In this document: one piece after another, positions 1-41,404 of the stretch | Layout of the letters: each line of letters begins with the position of its first letter | Position numbering within the stretch: position 1 is the first letter of the stretch | Source of the DNA: Cyanidioschyzon merolae | Lineage: Eukaryota | Length of the DNA: 64,000 nt | Assembly: GCA_000091205.1 (NCBI GenBank) | Contig: AP006489.2 | Strand: one strand, 5' to 3' | Notes under the pieces: model-generated | Told to the model about the DNA's origin: nothing | Databases searched by the model: none | The model's input: the letters and a program-made list of their open reading frames with translations, nothing else | Program-made: the position numbers and the translations under genes

Positions 1-1244
1 GGATTTGGTGCGAATGCTTGTCTGCTTTTCCAGGAAGCAACGGACTAGGGTGCTACCTTCAATGACGTACCTGCATTGCTAATACCGCATCGTTGGCACG
101 CGCGAACATGTCAACCGGTGCGTCGGTGAAGGAGGCGAAACGTCCCATGGAGTGCGACCCGGCGAGCAAACACCGCCAGAGGACACGCGGTAGACGCAGC
201 ATCGTAGGACACCGCGGGGGCAACAAGCTACGATCCCCCGAAGAGAAGCCTCGTTCATGTTTATGGAACGTATGGGTCCGGACACGACGACGATTGCAAC
301 CGTGGGTGTCGATCATCGTCGAGGTCTCGCAGATTACCGCTTCATTGCATGGGCACGATACCCTAAAGCAAAAATTGCCGCAGGATTCGCGGTATGCTTT
401 TGCAGCGGATGCAGAGGCTCGTGCTGGCTAGCAGTTGCTCGCTAGAAAGCAGCGAGCGTAGAGCTGGCCAACTATGCGCAAACTCGTGGGGATCAGCGGC
501 CAGCTAGTATCCCATCGCACTCTAGTCCGTTGTATGTCTAGGGCTGCTAGCTGGAGCGCAACCCCAAGCGTCCGCTGCCTCCAGAGTCGCGCTGCTTCCC
601 CAGTTCACGTCCAGTTGGCTAGAGGTACGTCATCTCCACGCCCGAACAGTAGTCTATCAGGTATCCCGAACCGGAACCTCGAACGAGCGCGTGACGTCAA
701 CGGATGGAGTCCTTACTTCCGGGGGCCTCAATTTCGTACCATCATCCGATCCGTGAGCGCTCCATACGTGCGTGAAGCGCCAGTCCCAGACTTGGCAACT
801 GCTAGTGCGCAACGCCCTTCACCTCCGCAAGTGTTACGTTGAGCCTGCATCCAACGCAAGTTACAGCTGCGGTTGGATGACCCTAAGCTTCAAAGCGTCC
901 GAAAACGAGAAATTGCTCCACGACACCTGCTCTTTAGGGCGCTCGGCCTCAGGGCACCCGCTTCCCCGCCCAGAAACCGCAACCCCTCGAAATGCTGGCA
1001 AGTGCCCGCGCGATCCCAGCTTCACGAGGATCGCTCACTGATCTGCTGGGAAAGCGAAACATCGTACACTGTCGTGTTGCTAGGTTGTACTGGGTTTCAA
1101 AGCTGACCAGCACTCAGGGTCAGGCGAAGCAACGTTCGCATCAGTCGCTCATCATTGTCAGCGTCATCCAAACGTGGTTCTAGAGCTCGTTGGTTACGAC
1201 GCTCTGGGAGGCGGCTGTGTCAGCACCGACCAGCCGAGCATACC

Positions 1245-6692: not shown

Positions 6693-8303
6693 CGATGACT
6701 TTTGAAGTACATGGAACGTATAGCCATGTTTGATTTTGTTTGTTTTTCTGGCAGGTATGCAACGAAAGGAATGCGTTTCGCAGACTGGGGAAAGGTCGGC
6801 AAGAGGCTCGATGGCGCCACTACTGGCTAGCGAAGAGAGGCCTTCGCATCAGAAGCAGCACAGAGTGCCTCCCTGGGGTCCGAGTGCACGAGCCACCTTT
6901 TGCGTCCGTTCGATATAGACCGCAAATATCAGACCAAGGCTCATGATCGCATCGTAGACTCTTCTGCATGGAGCTTTACGACCACCACCGTAGTGAGCAG
7001 CGGCAGATATCTGCGACCAATACGAAGCATTCGAGCAACACCGCAAAGCGCACTGGCGAGATACCTTGCTGTTAACCGAGAGGAAACGGGAAGACGTGTT
7101 TGCGAGGACGTCAAAGACCGGACGGAATATCAATCTGTATGCACATTGCGCAGCATCTGGACCAGCGTCTACCAAAGAGACTCATTCGCACCCGTTCAGC
7201 CCAGATGAAGACAACGTCTTCGCGATGGTGGTGTTCGTGCATCCCGAATCCAGGTGCATCGAAGCACTCGCCGTACCTGTAGATCAAGAGCACGGAGCCA
7301 GCGACCCAGGAAGAAACCAGATGAAGCTGCTCGATCTCCGGGGATTCTCTCTGGTAGGCAGCTGGGAATGATCGGCACCAGAGGGTATACCAGAAAATGG
7401 AATGCTGTTATCAGCACCAATCGCGACGCTCCGAGCTCTGCATCCAGCAGCGGGCGATGCTTGCGTCCGTTTCATTCAGAGCGTGCCAAAAACGTCCAAA
7501 CAGTTGATGCACGCGATACTCAGCGGGAATTCGGGACACCGCACCGGAGTCGCCGACAGTTTCGGCCGTATGGAGGCAACAAGCGCGCAAGTGTCGGGTT
7601 CTTCACTGATTTCGAACAGAAAATGACGAGAGGTTTGCGTCGTTTCGCGATAGCCTTCGGCGCTGGGCTTGAAGTTGCGCACACGCCCTGAACTCCTGCG
7701 CTCCGTCGACGAAAGCCGGCAGTGCGCACGGGAATCTGCGCTATACGATTCCCATCGGTGACTGAATCCCGGGCGACATCGATGCATCACGAGCGTGGGT
7801 GCTTGCTGCGACACGAATAGAAACAATCGTATGAAACAGCGTCGGATGCACGCCATGGTGTCCAGAAGGCTGAGCGGACGTCAGTTGGCGAGGCAATCGA
7901 AAAGCATTGCCCAGCTCGTGTGTGATGCCACCGGCTATCATGCACGCGAGCTCTCTCTCTCTCTGTGACGACTCGAACGCCTCCATTATTCACTGGGTAT
8001 GACCAGTGCTTCGAGAGCGTCCAGCGGCCTTGTGTCGAGCGAACGTTCCCGAAAATCGTTTCGTAATCAGCCTGGGCATCTTGCTGAAAAGCTGCAGCCT
8101 TGCGTCCAGAAACACAATGCATCAGTGACCAGGAGAACGCGCACTGGATGCTCACCCCGCAGGAACACACCGCTGTGCTTCGGGTGAGCAATCCATCAAG
8201 GCTGCAGCGACGTGCACCCATCCACCGGTAACGGTATTCCTCAACAGTATTTGAGCGATCATGGGGTTCCACGAATCAACTGTAGAGCGTATATCGCACA
8301 GCG
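6693..8303. repeat. Inverted repeat 1, arm A (~1.6 kb). It is a near-identical reverse complement of 12950-14551.
   Basis: Every ORF-track entry in 6730-8505 has a mirror-image twin on the opposite strand in 12674-14520 that differs by 0-1 aa; for example 7066..7371(+) equals 13879..14184(-). I located the boundaries by reverse-complement comparison: outer end ~6693 (..gatgacttttgaagtacatgg), inner end ~8303 (..gtagagcgtatatcgcac). Confidence 0.85.
7951..7964. repeat. (CT)7 microsatellite inside IR1 arm A. The arm B copy (13284-13299) is one dinucleotide longer.
   Basis: Arm A reads gcgag(ct)7gtgacg. Arm B reads cgtcacac(ag)7ctcgc, i.e. 16 nt versus 14 nt. This 2-nt difference explains why the mirrored ORFs of the two arms diverge after ...RVVT(E/Q)RER. 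Confidence 0.8.
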
Positions 8304-9161
8304 GTTGCCGTATCTGCCTAGGTGCTCGAAGATACTTGCCCGCAGAAACGCTGCTTGGTTTCGCGACACCTGAATTCGACTGGTAGGCAGGGGCCTGCAA
8401 TGCGCCGCCATCGGGGATGGAGAAACAGTTGCTTCGGAAGCCGCTTTCTAACAGGCCGTTACAATCAGACAGCACCGGTTTGGGAACTCGCGTCGACGTC
8501 GGCAAGTCTGTACTGCCTCAATGCAGCGGCCTCGATAAAGCCGGCACTCAGTAAAATGCCGGTTCTACTGAGTTTCGATTTTATCGGCGAACCCTGTTCT
8601 GGGCATGGCTGTTGTAAAGGCATCTGCAGAAGCGGGAGTGCATACGTCCACAGCGGCTTCCGTTTTGCACATTGGGCCGTGTCTGATTGAATGCATCGAT
8701 CACCTCCCGTGAAAATTCCTTTGAGAAAAGACTACAACGGAGGCGCTTCCATCCATGCCGCCCTCTGGCGGCAACAGATCCGCCTAATCCCCATCGCAGG
8801 GTACCAGGTGCAGTACTGCGGACAAGTGATATCCGCGGAAGCGACACTCCAGCCGACATCAGCCGCCTGCATTGATCGAAGTGACCGCCGCTTCTCACTC
8901 GACCATGCACTGTGTGAGCATTCGAGAGCAGCACGCAATTCATCACATACTATGTTCGACAAAGCCTGCGGTGTGCATTTCGCCAGAGATGCCAAAGACA
9001 AAACCGTTGTCGATGGCGGCTGGCCGAACCAGTTCAAAAAAGCGTCTCCAGGCATCTCTGAAGTTGTACGTTATGGAGCTTCGGGCCGAGAATCCGCATG
9101 CACTGCTCAGCGGCACGCCGCAGAATGTCCCGACGAGAACGTGCCTACACCACACCAGCCT

Positions 9162-12910: not shown

Positions 12911-12947
12911 GCAGCCTGCTGCCGTCGTGGTATCGACGGCAGGCTGC
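12911..12947. other. Imperfect palindrome/hairpin (about 14-17 bp stem, 5-nt loop) directly abutting the inner boundary of IR1 arm B
   Basis: gcagcctgctgccgtcg tggta cgacggcaggctgc: the left arm is the reverse complement of the right arm apart from a 3-nt (cag) bulge. Arm B begins at ~12950. Confidence 0.6.
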
Positions 12948-12949
12948 GG

Positions 12950-14551
12950 TGCGATATACGCACTACAGTTGATTCGTGGAACCCCATGATCGCTCAAATA
13001 CTGTTGAGGAATACCGTTACCGGTGGATGGGTGCACGTCGCTGCAGCCTTGATGGATTGCTCACCCGAAGCACAGCGGTGTGTTCCTGCGGGGTGAGCAT
13101 CCAGTGCGCGTTCTCCTGGTCACTGATGCATTGTGTTTCTGGACGCAAGTCTGCAGCTTTTCAGCAAGATGCCCAGGCTGATTACGAAACGATTTTCGGG
13201 AACGTTCGCTCGACACAAGGCCGCTGGACGCTCTCGAAGCACTGGTCATACCCAGTGAATAATGGAGGCGTTCGAGTCGTCACACAGAGAGAGAGAGAGC
13301 TCGCGTGCATGATAGCCGGTGGCATCACACACGAGCTGGGCAATGCTTTTCGATTGCCTCGCCAACTGACGTCCGCTCAGCCTTCTGGACACCATGGCGT
13401 GCATCCGACGCTGTTTCATACGATTGTTTCTATTCGTGTCGCAGCAAGCACCCACGCTCGTGATGCATCGATGTCGCCCGGGATTCAGTCACCGATGGGA
13501 ATCGTATAGCGCCGATTCCCGTGCGCACTGCCGGCTTTCGTCGACGGAGCGCAGGAGTTCAGGGCGTGTGCGCAACTTCAAGCCCAGCGCCGAAGGCTAT
13601 CGCGAAACGACGCAAACCTCTCGTCATTTTCTGTTCGAAATCAGTGAAGAACCCGACACTTGCGCGCTTGTTGCCTCCATACGGCCGAAACTGTCGGCGA
13701 CTCCGGTGCGGTGTCCCGAATTCCCGCTGAGTATCGCGTGCATCAACTGTTTGGGCGTTTTTGGCACGCTCTGAATGAAACGGACGCAAGCATCGCCCGC
13801 TGCTGGATGCAGAGCTCGGAGCGTCGCGATTGGTGCTGATAACAGCATTCCATTTTCTGGTATACCCTCTGGTGCCGATCATTCCCAGCTGCCTACCAGA
13901 GAGAATCCCCGGAGATCGAGCAGCTTCATCTGGTTTCTTCCTGGGTCGCTGGCTCCGTGCTCTTGATCTACAGGTACGGCGAGTGCTTCGATGCACCTGG
14001 ATTCGGGATGCACGAACACCACCATCGCGAAGACGTTGTCTTCATCTGGGCTGAACGGGTGCGAATGAGTCTCTTTGGTAGACGCTGGTCCAGATGCTGC
14101 GCAATGTGCATACAGATTGATATTCCGTCCGGTCTTTGACGTCCTCGCAAACACGTCTTCCCGTTTCCTCTCGGTTAACAGCAAGGTGTCTCGCCAGTGC
14201 GCTTTGCGGTGTTGCTCGAATGCTTCGTATTGGTCGCAGATATCTGCCGCTGCTCACTACGGTGGTGGTCGTAAAGCTCCATGCAGAAGAGTCTACGATG
14301 CGATCATGAGCCTTGGTCTGATATTTGCGGTCTCTATCGAACGGACGCAAAAGGTGGCTCGTGCACTCGGACCCCAGGGAGGCACTCTGTGCTGCTTCTG
14401 ATGCGAAGGCCTCTCTTCGCTAGCCAGTAGTGGCGCCATCGAGCCTCTTGGCGACCTTTCCCCAGTCTGCGAAACGCATTCCTTTCGTTGCATACCTGCC
14501 AGAAAAACAAACAAAATCAAACATGGCTATACGTTCCATGTACTTCAAAAA
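12950..14551. repeat. Inverted repeat 1, arm B (reverse complement of 6693-8303)
   Basis: Same mirrored-ORF evidence as arm A. Inner boundary ~12950 (gtgcgatatacgcactacag), outer boundary ~14551 (..cttcaaaaagtcatcg|gactg). Confidence 0.85.
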
Positions 14552-14721
14552 GTCATCGGACTGAAAAGAACCCAAAGCATGCCCCGAGCGACAGCCGCCA
14601 GGCACTGGACCCGCAACCTTGGCGTCCAGCAGGATGCACCAAGTCGCATACACCGGAGGCACTTCCTTTCGCAAACCCGACCCATTGGCGGTGTCGTTGG
14701 TACACGTCGCCCCGTACTCCT

Positions 14722-23119: not shown

Positions 23120-23149
23120 TGACACAGCCAACAACAAACGCCTTTGAAA

Positions 23150-25068
23150 AGAAAAACGCTGCCGCCAGTGGTGCACAGTAGTGGCGGCGAACGCGCCCCG
23201 GACAAGCAGTCTCCAGCTGACGGGCAGACGCATCCCAGCCTTGCTGGGCAGGCCACCCACCACTGGTTTCAACTTTTTCTCATATAGTTGGACTTTGAGA
23301 GGTTGTCCAACAAAGTTCTCTCTTGTCTGCTGTGGAGGTCTTTTCTCAATCGCCGCGCATCTCCTTATATTGACGGCGGCGTTAAAGTCTCGGTTCACAA
23401 ACCGCATACGTTTCTTGCCGTCGTTGGTTGTACTTACGAATGCGAGTAGCCCTCGCACTTTTGTTCTCCTCTCCATTTGCACCTCCGGCAGCGGTCCGTA
23501 CTTTGCTATGTCTTCAGGACTCCCCTGGCGCTTTTCCATCTCGACCCTTTGAAGTGTACACTCCAGCTCATGGTGTGTATCGGACGTTCGGAACTCATCT
23601 ATCCGTATCGTAACAAAACGCCGTGCATTCTCCTTGTACGTTCTTGTCGTTGGAGCTGGCGGAGTCCCTTTGTGGGTCTTCCAGCGCCCCACTCCGTATG
23701 CTACTACGAGCCTCTGACTTTCAAGCTCTCTCAAGGCACTCAACTCATTGAAAAATTCGCGAACGCCCGCTGCTGACCACAATACGGATTCATACGCAAA
23801 CGAGCCCACCGGGGCTTTGTATACTCTTCCCACAGCGCCTCCCAAGGAGCAACATGAACATCCATGCATTTCAGAAAAGCTTCAAAGTCCGCTGCGCGGC
23901 TCGTCACCTTGCTCATAGCTTCCAGGTGCTTCTTCAATCCAGCATTCTCTATCTCGATTTTCTTCCTTGCATTCATTATACCGGATTCTCGGTAGTATCT
24001 CGCTCTCGAGAACCTCAAACGACGCATGTCGTTCTGACGTAATTTACTGTGCGTACCGTATTCCGCACGCTGGGGTACTGCGATGGTTATGATATTTGTG
24101 TTTCCGGGGTCCGCGCCAACGACAAAGTCGTTATTCTCTACCTCTTGCGTCGCAGGATCCTCCTCTTTGTTTTCCTCATGCTTCGCCGCGCCAACGACAA
24201 GGTCGTTATCCTCTACCTCCTGCGTCGCAGGACCCGCCTTCTCCTTGTCTTCATCCTTCGTGACGGGCGCAGCCGAGGGAGGGACTGGCCGGGCTCTCTT
24301 CAACCGCCGATAGTGTATACACAAGGCTACTCCATCGGTTTCAATCATCAAAGTGAACAATTTTTGCTTGCTCACTCTCAAACGTTTAAAATTGAAGATA
24401 TTCTTCCAGTACGTCTCCCGGTTCTCGCCGGCGAAGTCCTCCCTGCTAACGTTGAACTCCGAACAGATCTCCTTCATGATGCCATGAAGGATTCCGGAGT
24501 CGATAGTCCCAAAATGTGACTTGATATTGGACAATGGGACCACGTTGAAGCGCTTCCCCATTAGGAAATCCTTCCGTCTCTCCCACTCTTCATTTGTCTC
24601 TTCACGCAGCATCACCGCTGCCTTGGCTTCGAGCTCTCGGTCCAGAAACACGAAATAGCACAGAATGAGGCGATCGTATCTTTCCTGATCTTTGCTCAAC
24701 TCTGATACCTTGTCTGTTGGATTCGGTAGCCCCAGTACCGCACGATGCTCTTGTATAACCGTACGGATCGCAGAAGCTTCATTCGTGCTCACTTTTGACG
24801 CCTTCTTGTCGACAAATTCGACCTCATCTTCACGCTTGCGATCTTTCATGATGCCATTGATAATCGTCCATTTTCCATTGCGAGAGATGCGCGGGTAGAG
24901 TGCAACCACGGCGCGTATCATGAAACGTTCGAGGTCCATTGTCAAATGGTTCTTCAGGTCCGTGAGGTACTTCTTCGCCCCGTAGGTGTACATATCCCGG
25001 TCACCCTTGTAGCGAGTACCCTCGAAGCTGTAAAAGGGGTGTTTTTCGTGGAGGGTATGCACTAGCAC
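23150..25068 (-). pseudogene. TnpB/Fanzor-like RuvC nuclease, disrupted copy
   Basis: Same protein as copy B, but the ATG of copy B is AGG here (tgatgg versus tgaggg), leaving no in-frame ATG. A 1-bp deletion in a T-run (gcgaatttttcaatgag versus gcgaattttttcaatgag in copy B, near 23756) splits the reading frame into ORFs 23740..25068 and 22853..23869. Confidence 0.65.
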
Positions 25069-26301
25069 ATTTTCCCTCCGCGTGTTCCCTGCGCCAACCC
25101 TCAGGTGACGAATAAAGGTTGCCGAAAACTCCCTCTGGAATCTCGACTGTTTCCATGTGCGTCACATCGCGATACATCTCCCTCGCCAAATGCATCAGTC
25201 CTGACGACGCCCTGGCAATACGCTTGGAGTACGACTAGGCACGTTTTTTGATGGCGCCTCGCAACTTTTCCCTGTACGAATCCTTGATATGTCCAAGAAG
25301 ACCGGCTTTCACTACCATTTCGTCGTACAGGTGTCTTTCTTGCCGCCTTCGACGTAGGGCCTCCCCTCTTCGGTCCTTCTTATCTTCCTTTTTTTCCGGA
25401 CTCGGCACTGTTTTTTGTTTTTTTTCTCTGGCAGCCGGCGACCCTGGGCCTCCAGGATCGTCGACTTGCTTTTTCATAACTTTCCTTTTTTAGATTTTTT
25501 TGAAAAAGAACGTTCTTTGAACGCTTCTGTTATATACTGCGAAAAAACGCTTGAATACACTTGTTTGAGGTTTGAAACACAATTGAAATCAAAACTATAC
25601 TTGGATATGAAGCTCACGAAAATCTGACTTTTACAGCTGAACGACACGCAACTGATCAAGATCGCGTTTCCCTTCAACGGCGGCGGCATGCGCGTCGTGC
25701 CAGTTGACTACTGCCAGCTCTGCCAGATGCACTCACTGACCGCGATGCGTGCACCGCGCGAGACGCTACACGGATCGATGAAGGACACGTGTCCGACGTC
25801 GCATTAGCACATGCGTGTTCTCACCGACGCACTGCAGCGGAAATCAGGTGTCCTAGATCGGAAACTCACGTAGAGTGATCCCCTGCGCTAGGCTCTGTCG
25901 CTGGTGCCGAAACTACTGCCCATCGCCGTACTACCCTAGCATACAAGGGGATGCTGGGGCCTGGCACAAAACTCAGCGATGACTCCAGCACACGCGTAGC
26001 CATCGTAGCATCTTGCGCTTTTGTGGGTAAGGCATGCATCAACCTAGTCATTAGGAGTTTCGATAGTTGTATTTATCGTACACAAACTAGGTGTAGTCGT
26101 GTACCCGAGTACGAATAATATACGTTTATTCCCGATTCTTGTTATGCATGCCGCACGGACGCTGGAATGAGGAACAGATTTGAATTCTGCTTTTATCCGG
26201 CGTCATCGGCGGGCACTGATGACAGTTCAGTATATTGCCATGCTGCCGTCGTTGTCTAACTTATGGTGTCTGCTTCGTTCGAAGGATCCGGTGATCTTGG
26301 T
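23150..26301 (-). mobile_element. TnpB/Fanzor-like nuclease element, copy A (inverted relative to copy B; decayed)
   Basis: The whole region is mirrored at 36619-39787 on the opposite strand; protein-level differences are ~10/650. Outer (3') boundary: identity with copy B ends after ..cagcgtttttcttt at 23150. Inner (5') boundary: high identity ends ~26301 (gcgatgcctc..), then ~70% similarity continues for ~140 bp more. A 1.2-kb AT-richer leader sits upstream of the ORF. Confidence 0.7.
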
Positions 26302-26614
26302 AGAGGCATCGCACACATGTAGCGTGCATATGTAGCACCGCGTTCGACCGACGCATTTCGCCCGGAACGATCGAGGCACCAGCAGCACAAGGCGCTGCAC
26401 CGACCTGAAGGACGGGCGGAGAGGCCCGGCAAGAGTAAATATTGTATAAAGTAGCATATTTAGGAATCTATATGATCCATTTTGCATACGCTGCACGAAA
26501 CGCTTGTCGCACTTGCGAACGCTTTGCAAGCGCTATCCGACAGCGCGTTTCAAGGGCGAACGCGTGCGTCTCGACGTAAAACCCACTGTGTGGAGGCGCT
26601 AGGAGCGCTCTAGA

Positions 26615-30689: not shown

Positions 30690-33600
30690 TGTACAACAAC
30701 CTCGCAGGCACAAGAGTTACCAGCGAAAACAATGTAAACGCGTCACACTTGACGAGGCCCCAAGTAGCACGGCCTCCTCCGCAGACTCCGGAAGGCTAAA
30801 GCGCCTGCGCACAGCGCTGAAACACGAGCCGCGCACGCATCGCAGCGGCACGCATTGCACGCCTGCTGTCCTCGGCACGCATCGCAGCGGCCTGCGTGTA
30901 TCCTGGATTCTACGACATGCGTCTGCGCGATGCGTCATAGCACCCCAGAATAGGCTGAGACTGGCACGAATGGCGACGGATAGCGCATCCTATCGTGGTA
31001 AAGGCACGGCAACGAGAGGTACAGAGACTTGAAAGGCGAATGATCTGGGCGTTGGGCAGTATATTTTTTGCGCGTGCATGCTTGTGTGCGGCTTGACATG
31101 TACGCGTTGCGGGGGTCTTGGGCGCGCTCCGGCCTGCACTGGCTATCAGGTCCGAGCGCGGCAAATGGGAAACTGCCGGGGGAATATGCGTGGTGGTGCG
31201 GAACGATGGGCACGCTCTCGGGTGCTGATAACCATGGCGTCTGCGGGGATCACTGCTTTATGTCAGCGGTTCTGTGCGCCGAAACACCCGAGTGTTCCCG
31301 GTCTGCAGTGCGCATTCGTTCATGCGATGATACATGAGAATGTCGCATAATGCAGCACGATTGACGTTAATCATTTGAATAGCCAAAGCGTCCCGAGTCT
31401 ATGTATATGACGCTCCAGCGTTCGTGGTGCGTTCAGTCATGCGGTACCGTTCCAGTACCTTGCACCTGGAGCGAATCCAACGCCCTCTCTTCAAGCCGTT
31501 GAAGTGCTCGTTGGAAGTTGTTAGCGTTCTAGCAAAATACCCACACTGATGACGAAATCTGTCGAAATCACACCCTTGAAAACTTGCTCGATACGGATCC
31601 GTTGTGCGCTATGGAATCACGGAACATTTTCGAATGTTCATCGAGATGAAGTTTCGGTGCAGATAGTGCTTTCGTGTATTGTTTCTGGTAGAATTATACC
31701 ATAGCCAGCCGCTCATTTTCGATAGCCTCGCCACCTGACGTTCGGGTATCATACCACGCATTATCTCGTGCAACTGGCTCTGTTTTAGAAGCTTATACTC
31801 TACCAGTTTCAGCGTGCACCCGCGCTCATGGTGCGTGCATGACATGCCGAACAAATCTGTGGGGATCATAGAGCATCGATCATTGCAGTCAATGTATGCT
31901 TTCGCGGAACGAGCAGGCATGCAGGCCTTGCGCGCTACCGCAGGTCCAGCGTCGAGAGCTCCCTTCACCGAACGACGCGACATGTCGGTCGTTTCCTGTT
32001 CCACCTCGTTGAACAAGATGACGAACGCACTGTTCTTGACTTTGTGCAATCGTTACTGTTGGTGGCCAGAGCGTGGTCTCATGTACACGCCCAAGAAATC
32101 GCCCAATCATCCATCAAGACGCTCGTGTATTCTCTGAATCGTAGAATCACATCGATCAGTCGAACGAGTTATGGTACGCGATGGGGAACGTACAACGCCA
32201 ACGGGGTGTGCTTCATAAATTGCTCGATTTTCGGAACGTATTCCTTGTTGAATTGTTTCAGAGGAACGGGATGTACGACGATTTCAGAATGGTACTTCAG
32301 CTCCGACACTTTTTCTATATCTCCTGGTCATTTTGTGGAAGAATCACTGTTATCTTCGTACGGCGCTTGCTTTGACTCGTTCTCTTCCTGGCCGGGTAAC
32401 ATGGGTGCATGCGCTTTACTACATATCCGTATTATTCCGTGGTATTTTTGCACAACGGGTGATCCCTCGCACTGAATCTCGCCTATTGCATAGGTATATC
32501 TACAATGGTTTAAATACGCTCTCGTCATCGTAACCGTCGCGAGTACGTCCACAGATCGGAACGCGGCGTGCCGCTTTCCTCATGCACGAGAAAAGATGTA
32601 GCGGAGTAGTTCAGAATAGGTAAAGATACAGAAAAATTCGTGTAGGGGCTGAAGTATGGAGATTAATACAATTCTCGGTTGATCCGCGAGCGTGAGAATT
32701 GCGTTTGACAACAGGGAGAACGGCTTTCTCTCGATTTATCTGGGGAGAAACAGCTAAGACGAAGAGCAGCTTAACGCCAGTCTCAGCCGCGCACTCCTTG
32801 ATCGCTTTTTAGTGATGAAAAGGGACGTTCTCTAAGAGCAAGAGACAGGAATATGCGATGGGGTAGCCTCGATGCGTGCTTCAACGAAGGATGAGATGCC
32901 GCATGATCCACTTCTTTGGGGAGTTGTAGGCGGGCACACGACAGTATCGACATTATGACTGAAGTTGTCGTCATTCTCGCTTGCTTCTTTTTAACGAGCA
33001 GAATTTTGACCCTTTTTGAGTACCCATGTAGAGTTCAATCAAATATCCCGAAAAAGATCTCATCGAGTGAGAAGAATGCGCGCCGATCCCGCAAGAAGTG
33101 TTGGCGTTGCAGCACGAAGACGTTCGTGTGTTCTTCCACCCGCAACGGTCTCTCACAGCAGCGAACTATCTTTTTTCGTCCGTTCATGTCTCTTCATCAT
33201 TATGCATATCGACGGTATGGAATCTTTAATTATGTATCTTAATTGACAGTATTTTCTAGAGAACGCTTTTCGTGGAATGCTTTGACGAAGTCACCGTCCT
33301 GAAGATAGGAACTAAGAAGTTCTGCCTCGGGTGCACGACGTTCAGATTAAGGATGCTGAGAAGGATTGCTCACCTACCTGCCTAATCAAGAATGACCGAC
33401 ATGGAAAAGCAGCGCCGATTTTCGGAAGCTAGCTGTGACAGCGTGCGTCTTTCGGCGAAACTTTTCCAGTCTATAGGATACGTCACTTTTACTGAATGTT
33501 TGCAAGAAATAGCAAACAAAAACAAATAGGATATGCAGGTATAGGTGCTCCAGAATACACTGCTCGGAATATAACAGTGGCATCCCGAACGGATCCATGC

Positions 33601-34896: not shown

Positions 34897-36618
34897 GGTA
34901 GTGTCAGTAGACAACTGCGTTGCCAGTGCTGCCGCGTTGCTGGCGACACGCCCGCCATTGCGTTGCGCGCTATGCCCACATGGCGTTAAGATCGGTGTGC
35001 TCTCGTCTTTCCACTCAAGTCTGTGACACTCCTGCTGCGCTTTAGAGCAGGGGATCGAAATCATGAAGCAATGTACAGTATAGAGCGTAGACGAATTGCG
35101 TGTAGGGTATATTTTTTTAATGAACAGTTCAAGAAAGACCGCATTCCTCATTCGGTTGAGTCATAACCCAGTACTCAGATGAATGACGAGCACAGAAAGA
35201 GGATATGCGCTCCGCGCCAAAAATCGATACGCTCAAAGACTGGGTGCGGTCAATGGCAGAAAACGAGTCGTCGATCACCTTGCAGAATGCAAACGTGTCG
35301 ATAGTAGCCGCGACGGTAGTCTCTGTTTCTCAAGTGCGTGTTCGTGTGCTCTGAAAGACTGGGATACAGTCTCAAAAAAGGAGTCCTAGTTCACGCACGA
35401 ACAGCTTTGACCGAAATCGCAACTACAACAAAGTTCCTCGAGAGTTGCCATCGATATGAAGCACAGCAACGTCGATTTCTTTTTCCAGACGATGAGAGTT
35501 TCTTCAGATGAAACGGTTGGAATGTATTTGGGTATTCGCGGAGAAGGAGCCATTTTAATATACGATGGAGCTCGAAGAGAAGGCTAGTACAACGGCACCA
35601 ACCACTTTGTCGGATCATAGCAGACTTTTCCCTTGACGTCTAATAATACCCTTCTATGGGACAACGTGGTATTTCACCATTCCTCTTCCGTTTGAGCATT
35701 TGCAGATTATATCGGGCAAGAGCTGCTTTTCATTCTTCCGTAAACTCCGCGGTTCAACCCCAACGAATGAAAGTTTCATATCGTGAAACGAAAGGATCGC
35801 TCCGCTGGGCGCATTGCTGGAGCGCTCAGCAAACTATGCCACACACAGAGACATATTTTTGTCTTTCTTCCACAAGTCTTTCACCATCCAAGCAGGTCCT
35901 CACCTTAAGACATAAACAAGTGCATTCATTCTCGAGAAATAAAAAAACCAAGGCATGAGCTCGTGTGCAGTCTTCAGAAGATCGAGACGAAGAGCAGGCA
36001 ACGGAGTTCTTCGATGATAGACAAGCACGGAGAGGCGACAGAGCACCAAATGGCATAGAGGGCGCGACTTCAAGGAATACTCGCTTTGGTGAGTCTAAGC
36101 AGTGGCAATAACCCCTTGAGTTCGAGAACCGAGAATTTAATGCAGCTATTTATATCAGGAAATGTGCGGTGCCTAGGACGAGACCCGCGGAGCTGATACG
36201 AGACAAGTTTGTGGAGCAGTCTCTCGAGGTCGAATCGTAAAAGGAGAAACTGAAGCCGATCGCAGGATCGGTCGAAAAAGGCTGGGAGTCGTCTGTACTT
36301 AGGTATTAACTTACCCTACGTAGTTGCGCGACCTGTTTGTTTCACTGGCATGTATGCTCTAGCGATAGCCCGTACGTTCCGCAGCAATATTACTGGGAGT
36401 GAAAAAACAGCAGGCAGTCATCGAACGTTCGGGAGCGTATGAATGGCAGGGTACGGTTAAGCTCAAGGTTCGGCGCTTGCACAACTCCATAACGGCGAGG
36501 GTCGTGCCAGTGATCCGACAGGGTACACCAGCTGGCAGTATGTGATTTTGTCATGCGCCCCGATCCTGCCAGGCGAAATGCAAGGGTCAGCCGTCAAGGT
36601 ACATTTAGACGCAGCATG

Positions 36619-39600
36619 CGCGATGCCTCTACCAAGATCACCGGATCCGTCGAACGAAGCAGACACCATAAGTTAGACAACGACGGCAGCATGGCAATAT
36701 ACTGAACTGTCATCAGTGCCCGCCGATGACGCCGGATAAAAGCAGAATTCAAATCTGTTCCTCATTCCAGCGTCCGTGCGGCATGCATAACAAGAATCGG
36801 GAATAAACGTATATTATTCGTACTCGGGTACACGACTACACCTACTTTGTGTACGATAAATACAACTATCGAAACTCCTAATGACTAGGTTGATGCATGC
36901 CTTACCCACAAAAGCGCAAGATGCTACGATGGCTACGCGTGTGCTGGAGTCATCGCTGAGTTTTGTGCCAGGCCCCAGCATCCCCTTGTATGCTAGGGTA
37001 GTACGGCGATGGGCAGTAGTTTCGGCACCAGCGACAGAGCCGAGCGCAGGAGATCACTCTACGTGAGTTTCCGATCTAGGACACCTGATTTCCGATGCAG
37101 TGCGTCGGTGAGAACACGCATGTGCTAATGCGACGTCGGACACGTGTCCTTCATCGATCCGTGTAGCGTCTCGCGCGGTGCACGCATCGCGGTCAGTGAG
37201 TGCACCTGGCAGAGCTGGCAGTAGTCAACTGGCACGACGCGCACGCCGCCGCCGTTGAAGGGAAACGCGATCTTGATCAGTTGCGTGTCGTTCAGCTGTA
37301 AAAGTCAGATTTTCGTGAGCTTCATATCCAAGTATAGTTTTGATTTCAATTGTGTTTCAAACCTCAAACAAGTGTATTCAAGCGTTTTTTCGCAGTATAT
37401 AACAGAAGCGTTCAAAGAACGTTCTTTTTCAAAAAAAGTCTAAAAAAGGAAAGTTATGAAAAAGCAAGTCGACGATCCTGGAGGCCCAGGGTCGCCGGCT
37501 GCCAGAGAAAAAAAACAAAAAACAGTGCCGAGTCCGGAAAAAAAGGAAGATAAGAAGGACCGAAGAGGGGAGGCCCTACGTCGAAGGCGGCAAGAAAGAC
37601 ACCTGTACGACGAAATGGTAGTGAAAGCCGGTCTTCTTGGACATATCAAGGATTCGTACAGGGAAAAGTTGCGAGGCGCCATCAAAAAACGTGCCTAGTC
37701 GTACTCCAAGCGTATTGCCAGGGCGTCGTCAGGACTGATGCATTTGGCGAGGGAGATGTATCGCGATGTGACGCACATGGAAACAGTCGAGATTCCAGAG
37801 GGAGTTTTCGGCAACCTTTATTCGACACCTGATGGTTGGCGCAGGGAACACGCGGAGGGAAAATGTGCTAGTGCATGCCCTCCACGAAAAACACCCCTTT
37901 TACAGCTTCGAGGGTACTCGCTACAAGGGTGACCGGGATATGTACACCTACGGGGCGAAGAAGTACCTCACGAACCTGAAGAACCATCTGACAATGGACC
38001 TCGAACGTTTCATGATACGCGCCGTGGTTGCACTCTACCCGCGCATCTCTCGCAATGGAAAATGGACGATTATCAATGGCATCATGAAAGATCGCAAGCG
38101 TGAAGATGAGGTCGAATTTGTCGACAAGAAGGCGTCAAAAGTGAGCACGAATGAAGCTTCTGCGATCCGTACGGTTATACAAGAGCATCGTGCGGTACTG
38201 GGGCTACCGAATCCAACAGACAAGGTATCAGAGTTGAGCAAAGATCAGGAAAGATACGATCGCCTCATTCTGTGCTATTTCGTGTTTCTGGACCGAGAGC
38301 TCGAAGGCAAGGCAGCGGTGATGCTGCGTGAAGAGACAAATGAAGAGTGGGAGAGACGGAAGGATTTCCTAATGGGGAAGCGCTTCAACGTAGTCCCATT
38401 GTCCAATATCAAGTCACATTTTGGGACTATCGACTCCGGAATCCTTCATGGCATCATGAAGGAGATCTGTTCGGAGTTCAACGTTAGCAGGGAGGACTTC
38501 GCCGGCGAGAACCGGGAGACGTACTGGAAGAATATCTTCAATTTTAAACGTCTGAGAGTGAGCAAGCAAAACTTGTTCACTTTGATGATTGAAACCGATG
38601 GAGTAGCCTTGTGTATACACTATCGGCGGTTGAAGAGAGCCCGGCCAGTCCCTCCCTCGGCTGCGCCCGTCACGAAGGATGAAGACAAGGAGAAGGCGGG
38701 TCCTGCGACGCAGGAGGTAGAGGATAACGACCTTGTCGTTGGCGCAGCGAAGCATGAGGAAAACAAAGAGGAGGATCCTGCGACGCAAGAGGTAGAGAAT
38801 AACGACTTTGTCGTTGGCGCGGACCCCGGAAACACAAATATCATAACCATCGCAGTACCCCAGCGTGCGGAATACGGTACGCACAGTAAATTACGTCAGA
38901 ACGACATGCGTCGTTTGAGGTTCTCGAGAGCGAGATACTACCGAGAATCCGGTATAATGAATGCAAGGAAGAAAATCGAGATAGAGAATGCTGGATTGAA
39001 GAAGCACCTGGAAGCTATGAGCAAGGTGACGAGCCGCGCAGCGGACTTTGAAGCTTTTCTGAAATGCATGGATGTTCATGTTGCTCCTTGGGAGGCGCTG
39101 TGGGAAGAGTATACAAAGCCCCGGTGGGCTCGTTTGCGTATGAATCCGTATTGTGGTAAGCAGCGGGCGTTCGCGAATTTTTTCAATGAGTTGAGTGCCT
39201 TGAAGGAGCATGAAAGTCAGAGGCTCGTAGTAGCATACGGAGCGGGGCGCTGGAAGACCCACAAAGGGACTCCGCCAGCTCCAACGACAAGAACGTACAA
39301 GGAGAATGCACGGCGTTTTGTTACGATACGGATAGATGAGTTCCGAACGTCCGATACACACCGTGAGCTGGAGTGTACACTTCAAAGGGTCGAGATGGAA
39401 AAGCGCCAGGGGAGTCCTGAAGACATAGCAAAGTACGGACCGCTGCCGGAGGTGCAAATGGAGAGGAGAACAAAAGTGCGAGGGCTACTCGCATTCGTAA
39501 GTACAACCAACGACGGCAAGAAACGTATGCGGTTTGTGAACCAAGACTTTAACGCCGCCGTCAATATACGGAGATGCGCGGCGATTGAGAAAAGACCTCC

Positions 39601-39787
39601 ACAGCAGACAAGAGAGAACTTTGTTGGACAACCTCTCAAAGTCCAACTATATGAGAAAAAGTTGAAACCAGTGGTGGGTGGCCTGCCCAGCAAGGCTGGG
39701 ATGCGTCTGCCCGTCAGCTGGAGACTGCTTGTCCGGGGCGCGTTCGCCGCCACTACTGTGCACCACTGGCGGCAGCGTTTTTCTTTA
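36619..39787 (+). mobile_element. TnpB/Fanzor-like nuclease element, copy B (intact ORF)
   Basis: Reverse-complement twin of 23150-26301. 5' boundary ~36619, with diverged homology back to ~36470. 3' boundary 39787, immediately after ..caccactggcggcagcgtttttcttt. A GC-rich imperfect hairpin (gccgcca N14 tggcggc, 39746-39773) lies 15-40 nt inside the 3' end. The two copies share no terminal inverted repeat. Confidence 0.7.
37832..39787 (+). CDS. TnpB/Fanzor-like RNA-guided-nuclease-family protein (RuvC-I/II/III, degenerate zinc finger), ~651 aa to the element end. There is no stop codon; the ORF continues in frame into the aminopeptidase gene downstream.
   Basis: RuvC-I: ..[20 protein letters not shown] (D331). 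TS/zinc-finger region: [23 protein letters not shown]. RuvC-III: [19 protein letters not shown] (D572), the classic DxNAAxNI motif. The order and spacing match TnpB/Cas12/Fanzor. The ATG at 37832 is preceded by an in-frame TGA. The ORF track lists the read-through as 37832..41404. Confidence 0.65.
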
Positions 39788-39829
39788 GACAGGCTTTTGT
39801 TTTCGCTGCCGTCGTCCTCCAGAAGCAAA

Positions 39830-41404
39830 ATGAACGCTGAACCAGGTGTTCCCAACTCGGACCACAACCGCACACGACAAATGCCTGGTGGGAACACAAC
39901 CGAGCAGGACGCACTCGCCGATCGCTTGCTTCGCTTTCTCGATGCGTCACCGTCTCCGTACCACGCAGTCGAGACCGCAAAACTGCTTCTAGAAACAGCT
40001 GGCTATACTGAGCTTCGGGAGGACTGTTCCTGGTTGGGGCGAGTTCATCCCGGAGGACGCTATTATACGACACGCAACGAGTCAACAATCGTTGCCTTTC
40101 GAGTGGGGCGAGCGTTTCACGTCGACGCGGTGAACGGCGGTGAGCTCCGACTCGTTGGCGCGCACACCGACTCGCCGTGCTTTCGAGTCAAACCACGAAG
40201 TCGCGTGAGCGACGCAAATTATGAAAAAGTTGCAGTCGAGTGCTACGGGGGCGGCCTCTGGTACACCTGGTTCGATCGCGACCTCAAGTGTGCTGGGCGG
40301 GTCATCTGGCGCTGTGCGTCCCCAACGGACCCGGCACAGGGCACCAGCCGATCGACCAGTTGGCAGTGCACACTCGTTCATGTACGGGAACCCATTTTGA
40401 GAATTCCATCATTGGCAATCCACTTAGATCGAGAAGTGAATCAGGGCTTCGCCCCGAACCGACAAACGCATTTGGTGCCGGTTGCCGCCACCGCATTGAA
40501 CAGAACAAAGTTGCCACAGTGTCAAGAGCGCCATGCCACTGCACTTACGGGAGCAGTTATTCACACTCTTCAACAGGACATCATGCCCGTTAAAGAAGAT
40601 CCGATGAGCATCACGCGTGATGCAGGCGGTATCGTTATTCATGACTTTGACCTCTGTTTGGCAGACGCACAGCCAGCGAGCATTGGTGGCGTTCAGCGGG
40701 AGTTCATCTTCGCTTCGCGTCTAGACAACCTGTTTTCCTGTTTCGCGGCACTCGAAGCGCTCCTCTCCCTGGATTCCGAGGCTGGGGTGGAAAGCGGTGC
40801 CGAGTCGGCGGTCTGCATGGTTGCGCTTTTCGACCATGAGGAGTGCGGTAGCGGTAGTGCGCAAGGCGCTGCGTCTCCGCTTGTCAGCGACCTGATTCGA
40901 CGTGTTCTAGCGTGTTTATGGACGGGGAAAACGGATGCAGGCGCTTTCGAGGACGCTGTTCAATACACGATCCGCCGCTCATTCTTGATCAGTCTCGATA
41001 TGGCGCATGCTGTCCATCCAAACTACGCGGAAAAGCATGAGAGTGGCCATCAGCCGCTCTTAGGCCATGGCCCTGTTCTGAAAGTCAACGCAAACCAGCG
41101 GTATGCAACTGACGGGTGGAGCGCTCATCTCCTCCGCGCTGTTGCCGAATGCTGTGATTCACCTATACCGCTGCAGGAGTACGTTGTGCGGAACGATATG
41201 CCTTGCGGCAGCACCATTGGACCCATTGTAGCTGCTGGTACCGGCGTACGAACTGTTGATGTAGGTGCACCAAGTCTTTCAATGCACTCGATTCGGGAAA
41301 TGGCGCATGTACGAGATCTATGGTACACCGTCAAGCTTTTGCAAGCGTTCATGCGATGTTTCGGTGAGGTCCGGGCGTCGCATAATACAGCGTGCGTGAC
41401 GTAG
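39830..41404 (+). CDS. DNPEP: aspartyl aminopeptidase (M18 family)
   Basis: ..LLRFLDASPSPYHAVETAKLLLETAGYTELREDCSWL..TRNESTIVAF..LRLVGAHTDSPCFRVKPRS..YGGGLWYTWFDRDL..LRIPSLAIHLDREVN..MAHAVHPNYAEKHE..NDMPCGSTIGPI..LSMHSIREMA aligns along its whole length with human DNPEP. Start taken as the ATG at 39830 (MNAEPG); the ATG at 39881 is an alternative. It begins 43 nt after the element end, in the same frame as the element ORF. Confidence 0.85.
   Translation: MNAEPGVPNSDHNRTRQMPGGNTTEQDALADRLLRFLDASPSPYHAVETAKLLLETAGYTELREDCSWLGRVHPGGRYYTTRNESTIVAFRVGRAFHVDAVNGGELRLVGAHTDSPCFRVKPRSRVSDANYEKVAVECYGGGLWYTWFDRDLKCAGRVIWRCASPTDPAQGTSRSTSWQCTLVHVREPILRIPSLAIHLDREVNQGFAPNRQTHLVPVAATALNRTKLPQCQERHATALTGAVIHTLQQDIMPVKEDPMSITRDAGGIVIHDFDLCLADAQPASIGGVQREFIFASRLDNLFSCFAALEALLSLDSEAGVESGAESAVCMVALFDHEECGSGSAQGAASPLVSDLIRRVLACLWTGKTDAGAFEDAVQYTIRRSFLISLDMAHAVHPNYAEKHESGHQPLLGHGPVLKVNANQRYATDGWSAHLLRAVAECCDSPIPLQEYVVRNDMPCGSTIGPIVAAGTGVRTVDVGAPSLSMHSIREMAHVRDLWYTVKLLQAFMRCFGEVRASHNTACVT

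What the first reader, a model, noticed from the sequence alone, without database searches (positions are those of the whole stretch)
38690..39560. Non-canonical catalytic architecture: acidic residue absent at the expected RuvC-II position, a conserved IDEF glutamate next to the TS motif, and a zinc finger reduced to a single cysteine
At roughly 38 residues before the TS motif, where TnpB has the RuvC-II glutamate (..vvEDL..), this protein reads [11 protein letters not shown], with no acidic residue. An acidic pair sits in [13 protein letters not shown], immediately before TS. The CxxC...CxxC zinc ribbon that normally follows TS is reduced to [13 protein letters not shown]. Relocated catalytic glutamates have been described for Fanzor1-type proteins, so this copy may belong to that class or be a variant of it. 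If so it would be a rearranged RuvC active site to test biochemically.
Basis: partly seen in the sequence, partly recalled or inferred. Interest (0 to 1): 0.5.

Follow-up and report, generated by a model that had tools for sequence, protein, structure and literature searches.

The report
Decayed red-alga Fanzor1 transposon nuclease copy
This stretch is a broken copy of an already-described transposon nuclease gene (Fanzor1, element CMe-1A) of the red alga Cyanidioschyzon merolae; its "relocated" catalytic glutamate is the normal, published Fanzor arrangement, and the only mildly unusual point is that this whole branch of the family has lost the zinc finger.

Summary
The sequence features are real. 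The 1190-aa ORF (37832-41404) has D331 in a DPG motif, G470 in VVAYGAG where TnpB has its RuvC-II glutamate, E503 in IDEFRTS, D572 in [10 protein letters not shown], and one cysteine between TS and D572.

They are not a new architecture. The window is C. merolae 10D chromosome 7. The element is the CMe-1A Fanzor1 transposon described by Bao and Jurka in 2013. Glycine at the canonical site plus a glutamate just before [TS][TS] is the published hallmark of all Fanzors. E503 aligns to SpuFz1 E541, which binds Mg2+ in the cryo-EM structure. The model's seven best fold matches are all solved Fanzor1 structures.

This copy is a pseudogene. It has a GAG-to-TAG nonsense codon, a 2-nt deletion, a lost stop codon that fuses it in frame to the real aspartyl aminopeptidase gene, and substitutions at conserved sites (H511R, R571Q).

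The zinc-finger loss is genuine but belongs to the clade. 114 of 129 assessable top family representatives lack both Cys pairs while keeping the catalytic glutamate and RD motifs. The Fanzor papers I read do not mention this.

Low interest overall.

The parts
36615..39800 (+). Copy A of the CMe-1A-type Fanzor1 transposable element. The left end is approximate. The right end is 39795 by the published consensus, and conservation among copies runs to about 39800.
   Evidence: It is 99% identical to a second copy over about 3.19 kb, and the flanks are unrelated. It matches published CMe-1A consensus nt 648/689-3168 at 82-88%. In more than 40 independent insertions, similarity stops at this right end.
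37456..37698 (+). N-terminal coding remnant: a basic NLS-like stretch plus the first helix, equal to consensus aa 1-80. It ends in a TAG nonsense codon at 37696-37698, where the consensus has GAG.
   Evidence: tblastn of the CMe-1 consensus and codon comparison. Copy B carries the same stop.
37814..37815 (+). Site of a 2-nt deletion (consensus AAGACC, window AACC) that shifts the frame between the N-terminal remnant and the long ORF.
   Evidence: Shared by copy B.
37832..39733 (+). Main body of the Fanzor1 pseudogene, aa 1-634 of the 1190-aa ORF. It spans the REC/WED region, the RuvC domain and a degenerate TNB domain.
   Evidence: Homologues P0001-P0069. PDB profile hits to PpFz1, SpuFz1 and GtFz1. 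AF2 model and Foldseek search.
38594..38602 (+). T255-D256-G257, the TDG motif characteristic of the Fanzor1 WED domain.
   Evidence: Invariant in alignment A1. The motif is described in PMC10711439.
38673..38820 (+). 75-nt tandem duplication (38673-38745 and 38748-38820) in the acidic linker. It duplicates the lead-in to RuvC strand beta1.
   Evidence: Self-blastn. Seen as a 25-aa insertion relative to the CMe-1 consensus.
38822..38830 (+). RuvC-I motif D331-P332-G333 (DPG). This is consensus D431.
   Evidence: D331 is invariant in A1 and present in 36/40 rows of A3. It aligns to SpuFz1 D383 (PMC10432273).
39224..39247 (+). Strand beta4 and the canonical RuvC-II position: LVVAYGAG, with G470 (39239-39241) in place of the TnpB glutamate.
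   Evidence: G470 is kept in 34/34 rows. The AF2 model has a strand at 465-470. It aligns to SpuFz1 'VVMGD'. Gly/Pro at this site is reported for Fanzors (PMC10530073).
39335..39352 (+). D502-E503-F-R-T506-S507. E503 (39338-39340) is the relocated RuvC-II glutamate (Ealt), equal to consensus E603.
   Evidence: E503 is kept in 32/32 rows. It lies in the loop after strand 497-501. It aligns to SpuFz1 E541, PpFz1 'IDEFRTS' and GtFz1 'PEHYTS'.
39353..39541 (+). TNB (Nuc) domain without a zinc finger. The first CxxC is replaced by T-H510-R511-E-L, and the second Cys pair by A554-F555-V-S-T. The only cysteine is C515 (39374-39376).
   Evidence: Modelled with pLDDT about 76-83.
39539..39559 (+). RuvC-III motif N570-Q571-D572-F-N-A-A. 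D572 (39545-39547) equals consensus D672. The R of the family's 'RD' motif is mutated to Q in this copy only.
   Evidence: D572 is kept in 28/28 rows. Position 571 is R in 24/28 rows and Q only in the window copy. Copy B retains CGA, coding R.
39734..39736 (+). Lost stop codon: consensus TAG, window CGG. The frame therefore runs on through the element end.
39776..39800 (+). Right-end terminal hairpin remnant (CGTTTTTC-TTTA-GACAGGCT) plus TTTGT. This is a candidate last stem of the omega/reRNA scaffold or a transposition signal. It is degenerate in this copy.
   Evidence: RNAalifold found no consensus structure, so this part is tentative.
39830..41404 (+). Aspartyl aminopeptidase (Peptidase_M18) host gene, BAM79567 / XP_005535853. 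It is not part of the element. It is fused to the pseudogene only by an open reading frame.
   Evidence: Pfam hit with E 3.8e-136. Exact match to the annotated 524-aa C. merolae protein.
23139..26315 (-). Copy B of the same element. It has the same nonsense codon and 2-nt deletion, plus a further 1-nt deletion near 23755.

Best explanation
The region encodes the RuvC/TNB half of a dead copy of the CMe-1 Fanzor1 gene. This gene is carried by the roughly 3.2-kb non-autonomous CMe-1A transposable element of Cyanidioschyzon merolae.

Intact members of the family are inferred to be omega-RNA-guided, Mg2+-dependent double-strand DNA endonucleases of the TnpB/Cas12 lineage. Their active site is built from three residues (window numbering, then consensus numbering):
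- D331 (D431), at the end of beta1 in the DPG motif.
- E503 (E603), in the loop after beta5 within DEFRTS.
- D572 (D672), at the start of the RuvC-III helix within NRD.

A glycine (G470) fills the place where most bacterial TnpBs have the glutamate. This is the ordinary Fanzor active site and not a new rearrangement.

The whole clade to which CMe-1 belongs has lost the C4 zinc ribbon of the TNB domain. The domain is still modelled as a folded beta-hairpin unit, presumably held together by hydrophobic packing.

The window copy itself cannot make the enzyme. It carries a nonsense codon, a frameshift, a lost stop codon and substitutions at conserved sites. Its twin, 99% identical and sharing the same lesions, shows it was copied after it died, either in trans or by recombination.

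Shown here: family identity, motif correspondence, fold, pseudogene lesions, and clade-wide zinc-finger loss. Inferred: nuclease activity of intact members, the omega RNA, and how the TNB domain folds without zinc.
For: Host and element:
- Nine window ORFs are exact matches to C. merolae 10D proteins BAM79557-BAM79573 on a 584,452-bp record.
- The CMe-1 protein and CMe-1A DNA consensus sequences from Bao and Jurka 2013 match at 74% aa and 82-88% nt. Their element length is 3169 bp, against about 3.19 kb here.

Family membership:
- The family profile hits PpFz1 (1.9e-13), SpuFz1 (1.6e-6) and GtFz1 (2.6e-4). D331, G470, E503 and D572 align to SpuFz1 D383, G505, E541 and D606.
- E541, D383 and D606 coordinate Mg2+ in SpuFz1 (PMC10432273).
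- The seven best Foldseek matches are Fanzor1 structures, with E from 9e-11 to 5e-6 over 635-760 columns.
- Secondary structure places E503 just after a strand. PMC11423790 puts the catalytic Glu on the loop between the fifth strand and the TNB domain.
- The DPG and TDG motifs are invariant.

Literature on the relocated Glu.

Pseudogene status: TAG at 37696-37698, a 2-nt deletion at 37814/37815, TAG to CGG at 39734-39736, and unique substitutions Y508D, H511R, G514E, F555 and R571Q.

Clade-wide zinc-finger loss: (114/129 representatives lack both Cys pairs). The family has 5733 representatives at E<=1e-3.
Against: - No coordinates could be inspected, so the 3D proximity of D331, E503 and D572 rests on alignment to solved structures and on secondary structure. 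It was not measured.
- The AF2 model is of moderate quality (mean pLDDT 67.8, pTM 0.53). It lacks the N-terminal ~125 residues.
- No member of this zinc-finger-less clade has been assayed, so activity is inferred from conservation only.
- The omega RNA was not demonstrated. RNAalifold found no consensus structure in the last 150 nt, and only 8/27 terminal hairpins are clearly better than shuffles.
- Pfam-A gives no significant hit to the Fanzor part. The only precomputed family is DUF8286.
Confidence: 0.9

Rival explanations
1. This copy, or the 1190-aa ORF, is a functional gene. It would be either an active N-terminally shortened Fanzor or a domesticated Fanzor-aminopeptidase fusion protein.
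For: - The frame is open for 1190 codons from an ATG and runs in frame into the Peptidase_M18 domain.
- D331, E503 and D572 are all still present.
- Some metagenome gene calls of the aminopeptidase are N-terminally extended, at 577-669 aa.
Against: - The annotated aminopeptidase starts at M667, and most cluster members are 524 aa.
- The ORF lacks about 125 N-terminal residues that are conserved in all full-length relatives. These are cut off by a nonsense codon and a frameshift.
- The read-through exists only because TAG became CGG.
- Copy B has the same lesions next to a different flank, plus one more frameshift.
- Conserved residues, including the R of the RD motif, are mutated only here.
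- The exact 1190-aa product is in no database.
Confidence: 0.04
2. The clade is a catalytically altered or exapted Fanzor derivative. On this view the zinc-finger loss marks loss of DNA cleavage, for example an RNA-guided binder or regulator like inactivated TnpB derivatives, and not an active nuclease.
For: - The C4 zinc finger was called strictly conserved in TnpB and Fanzor (PMC3627910).
- It helps hold the 5' end of the omega RNA in SpuFz1 (PMC10432273).
- Exapted and inactivated TnpBs are known (PMC10691335).
- No transposase is encoded in CMe-1A.
Against: - D, E and D are invariant down to 26% identity, which is not expected for an inactivated nuclease.
- The genes are multi-copy and transposon-borne.
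- Distant members sit next to DDE_3 transposase genes.
- Zinc-finger loss with retained predicted activity is described for large TnpB branches such as RIIIr-4 (PMC10691335).
- GtFz1 works with a reduced TNB domain (PMC11423790).
Confidence: 0.12
3. In the Cyanidiales subclade the zinc site is not lost but rebuilt from other ligands (H610, H611, C615, C625 of the consensus: THHELGC...EKC), giving a non-canonical H2C2 zinc knuckle.
For: - H510, H511 and C515 equivalents are present in 58/61, 57/61 and 56/64 related genomic copies.
- The consensus carries a second Cys at 625.
- H occupies the position of the first Cys of the canonical CxxC.
Against: - All positions in these young copies are about 85-95% conserved, so the counts do not discriminate.
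- Outside the subclade these four positions vary freely.
- The spacing H-H-x3-C-x9-C is not a known zinc-knuckle spacing (my own knowledge).
- The window copy has lost two of the four (H511R, C525R).
Confidence: 0.1

Closest known systems
CMe-1 Fanzor1 protein / CMe-1A transposable element of Cyanidioschyzon merolae (Bao and Jurka 2013, Mobile DNA 4:12; PMC3627910)
   Same: - Same host genome.
- Same length class (3169 bp).
- 82-88% nt identity over consensus nt 648-3168 and 74% aa identity.
- Same 3' end.
- No TIRs and no encoded transposase.
- Same DPG ... VVAYGAG ... DEFRTS ... NRDFNAA layout, with no C4 zinc finger.
   Different: - The window copies carry an unrelated 5' module of about 570-620 nt, a 75-nt internal duplication and inactivating lesions.
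- The 2013 paper describes the C4 zinc finger as strictly conserved, although its own CMe-1 consensus lacks it.
- The right end appears to extend about 5 nt beyond the published consensus.
Solved Fanzor1 nucleases: SpuFz1 (8GKH), PpFz1 (9CF0), GtFz1 (9CER)
   Same: - Overall fold. These are the top 7 Foldseek hits.
- DPG RuvC-I motif.
- Gly at the canonical RuvC-II place.
- Catalytic Glu in the (D/P)E(F/Y/H)xTS loop after beta5.
- (R)D/N in RuvC-III.
- TDG motif in the WED domain.
- Borne on a eukaryotic transposon.
   Different: - All three solved proteins keep a CxxC...Cx4C zinc ribbon in the TNB/NUC domain. The CMe-1 clade has none.
- Sequence identity is only 13-16%.
- No omega RNA has been defined for CMe-1.
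Ealt / TnpB2 / pro-Fanzor / RIIr-type TnpBs and Fanzor2 (e.g. ApmFz2, TvTnpB)
   Same: - The RuvC-II glutamate is relocated about 45-50 residues C-terminal, six residues before the zinc-finger position.
- The canonical site holds Gly or Pro.
- Reported absence of collateral cleavage.
   Different: - These are prokaryotic or IS607-type, more compact, and retain the zinc finger.
- Fanzor2 RNAs have a pseudoknot.
Zinc-finger-less TnpB branches (e.g. RIIIr-4; Altae-Tran et al. 2023, PMC10691335)
   Same: Loss of the C4 zinc finger across a whole branch, with conserved and presumably active catalytic residues.
   Different: These branches are prokaryotic or phage-borne. Their rearrangement is in RuvC-III and not RuvC-II, and the loss was independent.

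Membership tests
Fanzor1 | RuvC-I aspartate in a DPG motif | tested here: met
   D331-P332-G333. In the 40-sequence alignment, D is in 36/40 rows, P in 39/40 and G in 35/40. It aligns to the DPG/DPN of PpFz1, GtFz1 and SpuFz1.
Fanzor1 | Relocated RuvC-II glutamate (Ealt) just before [TS][TS], with a non-acidic residue (Gly/Pro) at the canonical position | tested here: met
   E503 is kept in 32/32 rows and G470 in 34/34. E503 aligns to SpuFz1 E541. It lies in the loop after a beta strand.
Fanzor1 | RuvC-III 'RD' motif followed by xNAAxN | tested here: met
   D572 is kept in 28/28 rows and NAA is present. The family has R571 in 24/28 rows, and this copy alone has Q571.
Fanzor1 | C4 zinc finger (CxxC...CxxC or Cx4C) between [TS][TS] and RD | tested here: not met
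   One Cys in this copy. The clade consensus is THHExG...RGLLWCxST. 114/129 assessable top representatives lack both halves. The feature is known to be dispensable in some TnpB branches (PMC10691335), so this lowers strict motif membership but not homology.
Fanzor1 | Fanzor1 fold: bilobed REC/WED plus RuvC/TNB, and a TDG motif in WED | tested here: met
   The top 7 Foldseek hits are Fanzor1 structures over about 600+ columns. T255-D256-G257 is invariant. The model is of moderate confidence.
Fanzor1 | Guide (omega/reRNA) encoded at the 3' end, overlapping the ORF end and the right transposon end | tested here: inconclusive
   The 3'-terminal ~150 nt are conserved up to a sharp boundary in more than 40 insertions, and most end in a hairpin. 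RNAalifold finds no consensus, and fold z-scores are weak. No RNA data are available.
Fanzor1 | Eukaryotic host, multi-copy, carried by a transposable element | tested here: met
   The host is C. merolae nuclear chromosome 7. There are two 99% identical copies plus older fragments in the window. More than 80 related loci occur in metagenomes.
Fanzor1 | RNA-guided, Mg2+-dependent dsDNA cleavage | not testable with these tools
   Requires biochemistry. This copy is a pseudogene.
Canonical TnpB (IS200/IS605, Pfam OrfB_IS605 / Cas12f1-like_TNB) | Glutamate at the canonical RuvC-II position and a significant match to PF07282/PF01385 | tested here: not met
   G470 sits at the canonical site. PF07282 is only sub-threshold in relatives (E 0.004-3) and absent for the window protein.

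The most novel reading that the evidence does not exclude
CMe-1 belongs to a large and diverse clade of Fanzor1 nucleases. More than 100 clusters at 50% identity show the signature DEFRTS...RGLLWCxST...NRDxNAA. Some members lie next to DDE_3 transposase genes, and one lies on a contig whose other genes suggest a giant virus. The clade has dispensed with the TNB zinc finger yet keeps an intact D-E-D triad. If its intact members are active RNA-guided nucleases, the zinc ribbon is not needed for Fanzor1 function. The Fanzor papers I could read do not state this, and regex-based Fanzor surveys that require CxxC...CxxC would have missed these proteins.
Probability: 0.5. Interest if true: 0.35.

Novelty: already known. 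Interest (0 to 1): 0.15.

Why it matters
For the finding as stated, it matters little. The relocated glutamate is the textbook Fanzor active site. It has already been tested by mutagenesis and seen in cryo-EM structures. This locus is a dead copy of a transposon family catalogued in 2013.

Three practical points follow:
- The 1190-aa ORF is an annotation trap. It joins a pseudogene to a host gene.
- Motif or regex definitions of Fanzor/TnpB that require a C4 zinc finger miss a sizeable clade.
- That clade offers natural zinc-free TNB domains. These could be informative for understanding or minimising Fanzor editors if an intact member proves active.

Tried and rejected
- **Alternative genetic code.** I considered that the in-frame TAG might be read as an amino acid. 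I rejected this because the consensus has GAG there (a single-nt change). Nine neighbouring ORFs also match annotated standard-code proteins exactly.
- **Intron instead of frameshift.** Rejected. Homology is continuous across the site and a 2-nt deletion explains the shift.
- **Pfam-A scans.** No significant family was found for the Fanzor part. The precomputed PF26935 is only DUF8286, and the local library does not report it.
- **Full-length profile against PDB.** This found only PpFz1. A profile of the RuvC half was needed to reach SpuFz1 and GtFz1.
- **Exact-sequence look-up of the aminopeptidase on contigs.** Nothing was found. The cluster look-up succeeded.
- **Taxonomic names for distant zinc-finger-less members.** None were obtained. 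One assembly accession was recovered without an organism name.
- **Omega-RNA search.** Single-sequence folds of the 3' end gave z of -1.0 and -1.7. RNAalifold on 27 right ends found no consensus. Terminal hairpins occur in shifted registers, so no clean covariation could be counted.
- **Rebuilt H2C2 zinc site.** Conservation counts in young copies do not discriminate.
- **3D distances between D331, E503 and D572.** These could not be measured because model coordinates are not exposed.
Full report
**Observation**

- VVGAD331PGN
- SQRLVVAYG470AG (aa 462-472, no acidic residue)
- RIDE503FRTS
- DTHRELEC515TLQRV
- VNQD572FNAAVNI

Only one cysteine lies between S507 and D572.

It is not chance. In an alignment of 17 relatives reaching down to 26% identity, D331, G470, E503 and D572 are invariant. 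In 40 relatives E503 is kept in 32/32, D572 in 28/28 and G470 in 34/34 ungapped rows.

**What the ORF really is**

Pfam finds only Peptidase_M18, at aa 702-1173. Nine ORFs of the window are exact matches to annotated proteins of Cyanidioschyzon merolae 10D (BAM79557-BAM79573, on a 584,452-bp record). One of them is the 524-aa aspartyl aminopeptidase BAM79567, which starts at M667, nt 39830.

The upstream 666 aa have 69 homologues, all unnamed metagenome proteins. Pfam knows them only as DUF8286.

The element carrying them is repeated in the window. Region 36615-39800 (+) and region 23139-26315 (-) are 99% identical, with unrelated flanks.

**Identity with a published element**

Bao and Jurka (2013, PMC3627910) described one Fanzor1 family in C. 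merolae, named CMe-1A. They reported 3169 bp, about 150 copies, no TIRs and no transposase.

Their supplementary consensus protein (734 aa) is 74% identical to the window copy. Their DNA consensus matches at 82-88% over nt 648-3168. The published consensus itself reads ...VVAYGAG...PVDEFRTSYTHHELGCTLQRV...RGLLALVSTT...VNRDFNAAINI. The architecture has therefore been public since 2013.

**This copy is a pseudogene**

Relative to the consensus, the window copy carries these changes.
- GAG to TAG at 37696-37698.
- A 2-nt deletion at 37814/37815.
- A 75-nt tandem duplication (38673-38820).
- Loss of the stop codon (TAG to CGG, 39734-39736). The frame then runs through the right end and 35 nt of spacer into the aminopeptidase gene.

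It also carries substitutions found in no other family member: Y508D, H511R, G514E, F555 and R571Q. R571Q destroys the R of the 'RD' motif. Further changes affect conserved W385 and C492, among others.

Copy B shares the nonsense codon and the 2-nt deletion, and it has one more frameshift. The element was therefore copied after the gene had died. Of 65 distinct related genomic copies, 23 have stops within the C-terminal 145 codons alone.

**The 'non-canonical' active site is the canonical Fanzor one**

The literature is consistent on this point.
- Jiang et al. (PMC10530073) showed that Fanzors replace the RuvC-II Glu by Gly/Pro and use a conserved Glu about 45 residues downstream. ApmFNuc E467A is inactive.
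- Yoon et al. (PMC10711439) define Fanzors by DPG plus 'Ealt', six residues before the zinc finger.
- Schargel et al. (PMC11832414) see E467 in the ApmFz2 triad.
- Xu et al. (PMC11423790) place the Glu on the loop between beta5 and the TNB domain.
- In SpuFz1, residues E541, D383 and D606 bind Mg2+ (PMC10432273).

The tests run here agree with that picture.
- A profile of the RuvC half of this family hits PpFz1 (1.9e-13), SpuFz1 (1.6e-6) and GtFz1 (2.6e-4).
- D331, G470, E503 and D572 align to SpuFz1 D383, G505, E541 and D606 (residue count checked by hand).
- An AF2 model (mean pLDDT 67.8, RuvC/TNB region about 75-90) has strands at 326-331, 465-470 and 497-501, with E503 just after the last strand.
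- Its seven best PDB matches are all Fanzor1 structures, followed by Cas12 proteins.
- The Fanzor1 WED 'TDG' motif is invariant as T255-D256-G257.

**The zinc finger**

All three solved Fanzor1s keep CxxC...Cx4C, and SpuFz1 has a CCCC site. In this family the first pair is replaced by H-x-x-x. The second pair survives only as a single Cys in RGLLWCxST. The Cyanidiales subclade has lost even that Cys and reads RGLLALVST.

A profile search of 1.84 billion representatives found 5733 relatives at E<=1e-3 and 460 at E<=1e-30. Among the best 150, 129 could be assessed. Of these, 114 lack both halves of the finger, with a median of 41 residues and usually one Cys between TS and RD.

Two distant members lie directly downstream of DDE_3 transposase genes. 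One of them is on a contig that also carries an mRNA-capping-enzyme gene and an Rpb7-like gene, which suggests a giant virus.

The loss is therefore real and old. It applies to the clade and goes with strict conservation of D-E-D. Loss of the finger in whole TnpB branches is already documented (PMC10691335). I found no explicit statement of it for Fanzor1.

**Mechanism**

Intact family members most likely work as other Fanzor1s do. An RNA transcribed from the 3' end of the element guides the protein to complementary DNA beside a TAM. The single RuvC site (D431/E603/D672 in consensus numbering) then cuts both strands. The TNB domain positions the substrate without zinc. All of this is inferred.

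The 3' end was examined in more than 40 independent insertions from metagenome contigs whose genes are near-identical to C. merolae genes. Similarity persists to ...GAAAGGCG plus about 5 nt and then stops abruptly. Most copies end in a hairpin.

However, the hairpin registers differ and RNAalifold finds no consensus. Fold energies are only weakly better than shuffles. The guide RNA therefore remains unproven.

**Verdict**

It is a decayed copy of a known element showing the known Fanzor active site. The one point worth a footnote is the clade-wide absence of the zinc finger.

Noticed in passing
window 23139-26315 (-): A second copy of the same element, 99% identical. It shares the TAG nonsense codon and the 2-nt deletion and adds a 1-nt deletion near 23755. 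It retains the family-consensus H511 and R571 where copy A has R and Q. Its flanks are unrelated to copy A's, so a dead copy was propagated.
   Followed up: yes
window 35954-36348 (+): An older fragment of the 3' part of a CMe-1-type element, about 71-73% nt identical to consensus nt 2736-3086 and containing stop codons. It lies about 270 nt upstream of copy A's left end.
   Followed up: partly
window 6693-8311 (+) and 12936-14558 (-); also 31573-32085 (-): A 1.62-kb inverted duplication (99.1% identical) contains a strongly decayed Fanzor-like relic, with 26-29% aa identity to aa 322-518 and stop codons. Another relic lies at 31573-32085. The region is rich in Fanzor debris of several ages.
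   Followed up: partly
window 36615-37187 (+): The 5' module of copies A and B does not match the first ~650 nt of the published CMe-1A consensus. That consensus segment is itself said to derive from another element, TE-N2_CMe. The family therefore seems to swap 5' modules.
   Followed up: partly
window 38673-38820 (+): A 75-nt tandem duplication inside the ORF repeats 'ATQEVE(D/N)ND(L/F)VVGA', the lead-in to the RuvC-I strand. Relatives such as P0001 carry further copies of this unit.
   Followed up: no
window 39776-39800 (+); loci L011-L084: Across more than 40 independent insertions the element ends about 5 nt beyond the published consensus (GGCG + TTTGT/TTCGG/TTTGG). Most right ends can form a terminal hairpin, either CGTTTTTC-TTTT-GAAAGGCG or GTCGTTCGA-CTTT-CGAACGGCG, but in shifted registers. 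This could be the last stem of a guide-RNA scaffold or a transposition signal.
   Followed up: partly
window 39734-39830 (+): The right end of copy A lies only 35 nt upstream of the aspartyl aminopeptidase start codon. Stop-codon loss makes an in-frame 1190-aa ORF. Metagenome gene calls of this aminopeptidase with 577-669 aa probably reflect the same trap.
   Followed up: partly
L003:645-3569 and L004:5018-7806: Distant zinc-finger-less family members (P0199 and P0344) sit directly downstream of DDE_3 (PF13358, IS630/Tc1-mariner-like) transposase genes. The L004 contig also encodes an mRNA capping enzyme-methyltransferase and an Rpb7-like protein, which suggests a giant virus.
   Followed up: no
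L051, L053, L054, L056 (about 1660-1760): In several related loci the element's 3' end is replaced by (CA)n-rich GCGCACACAC repeats instead of the normal right end.
   Followed up: no
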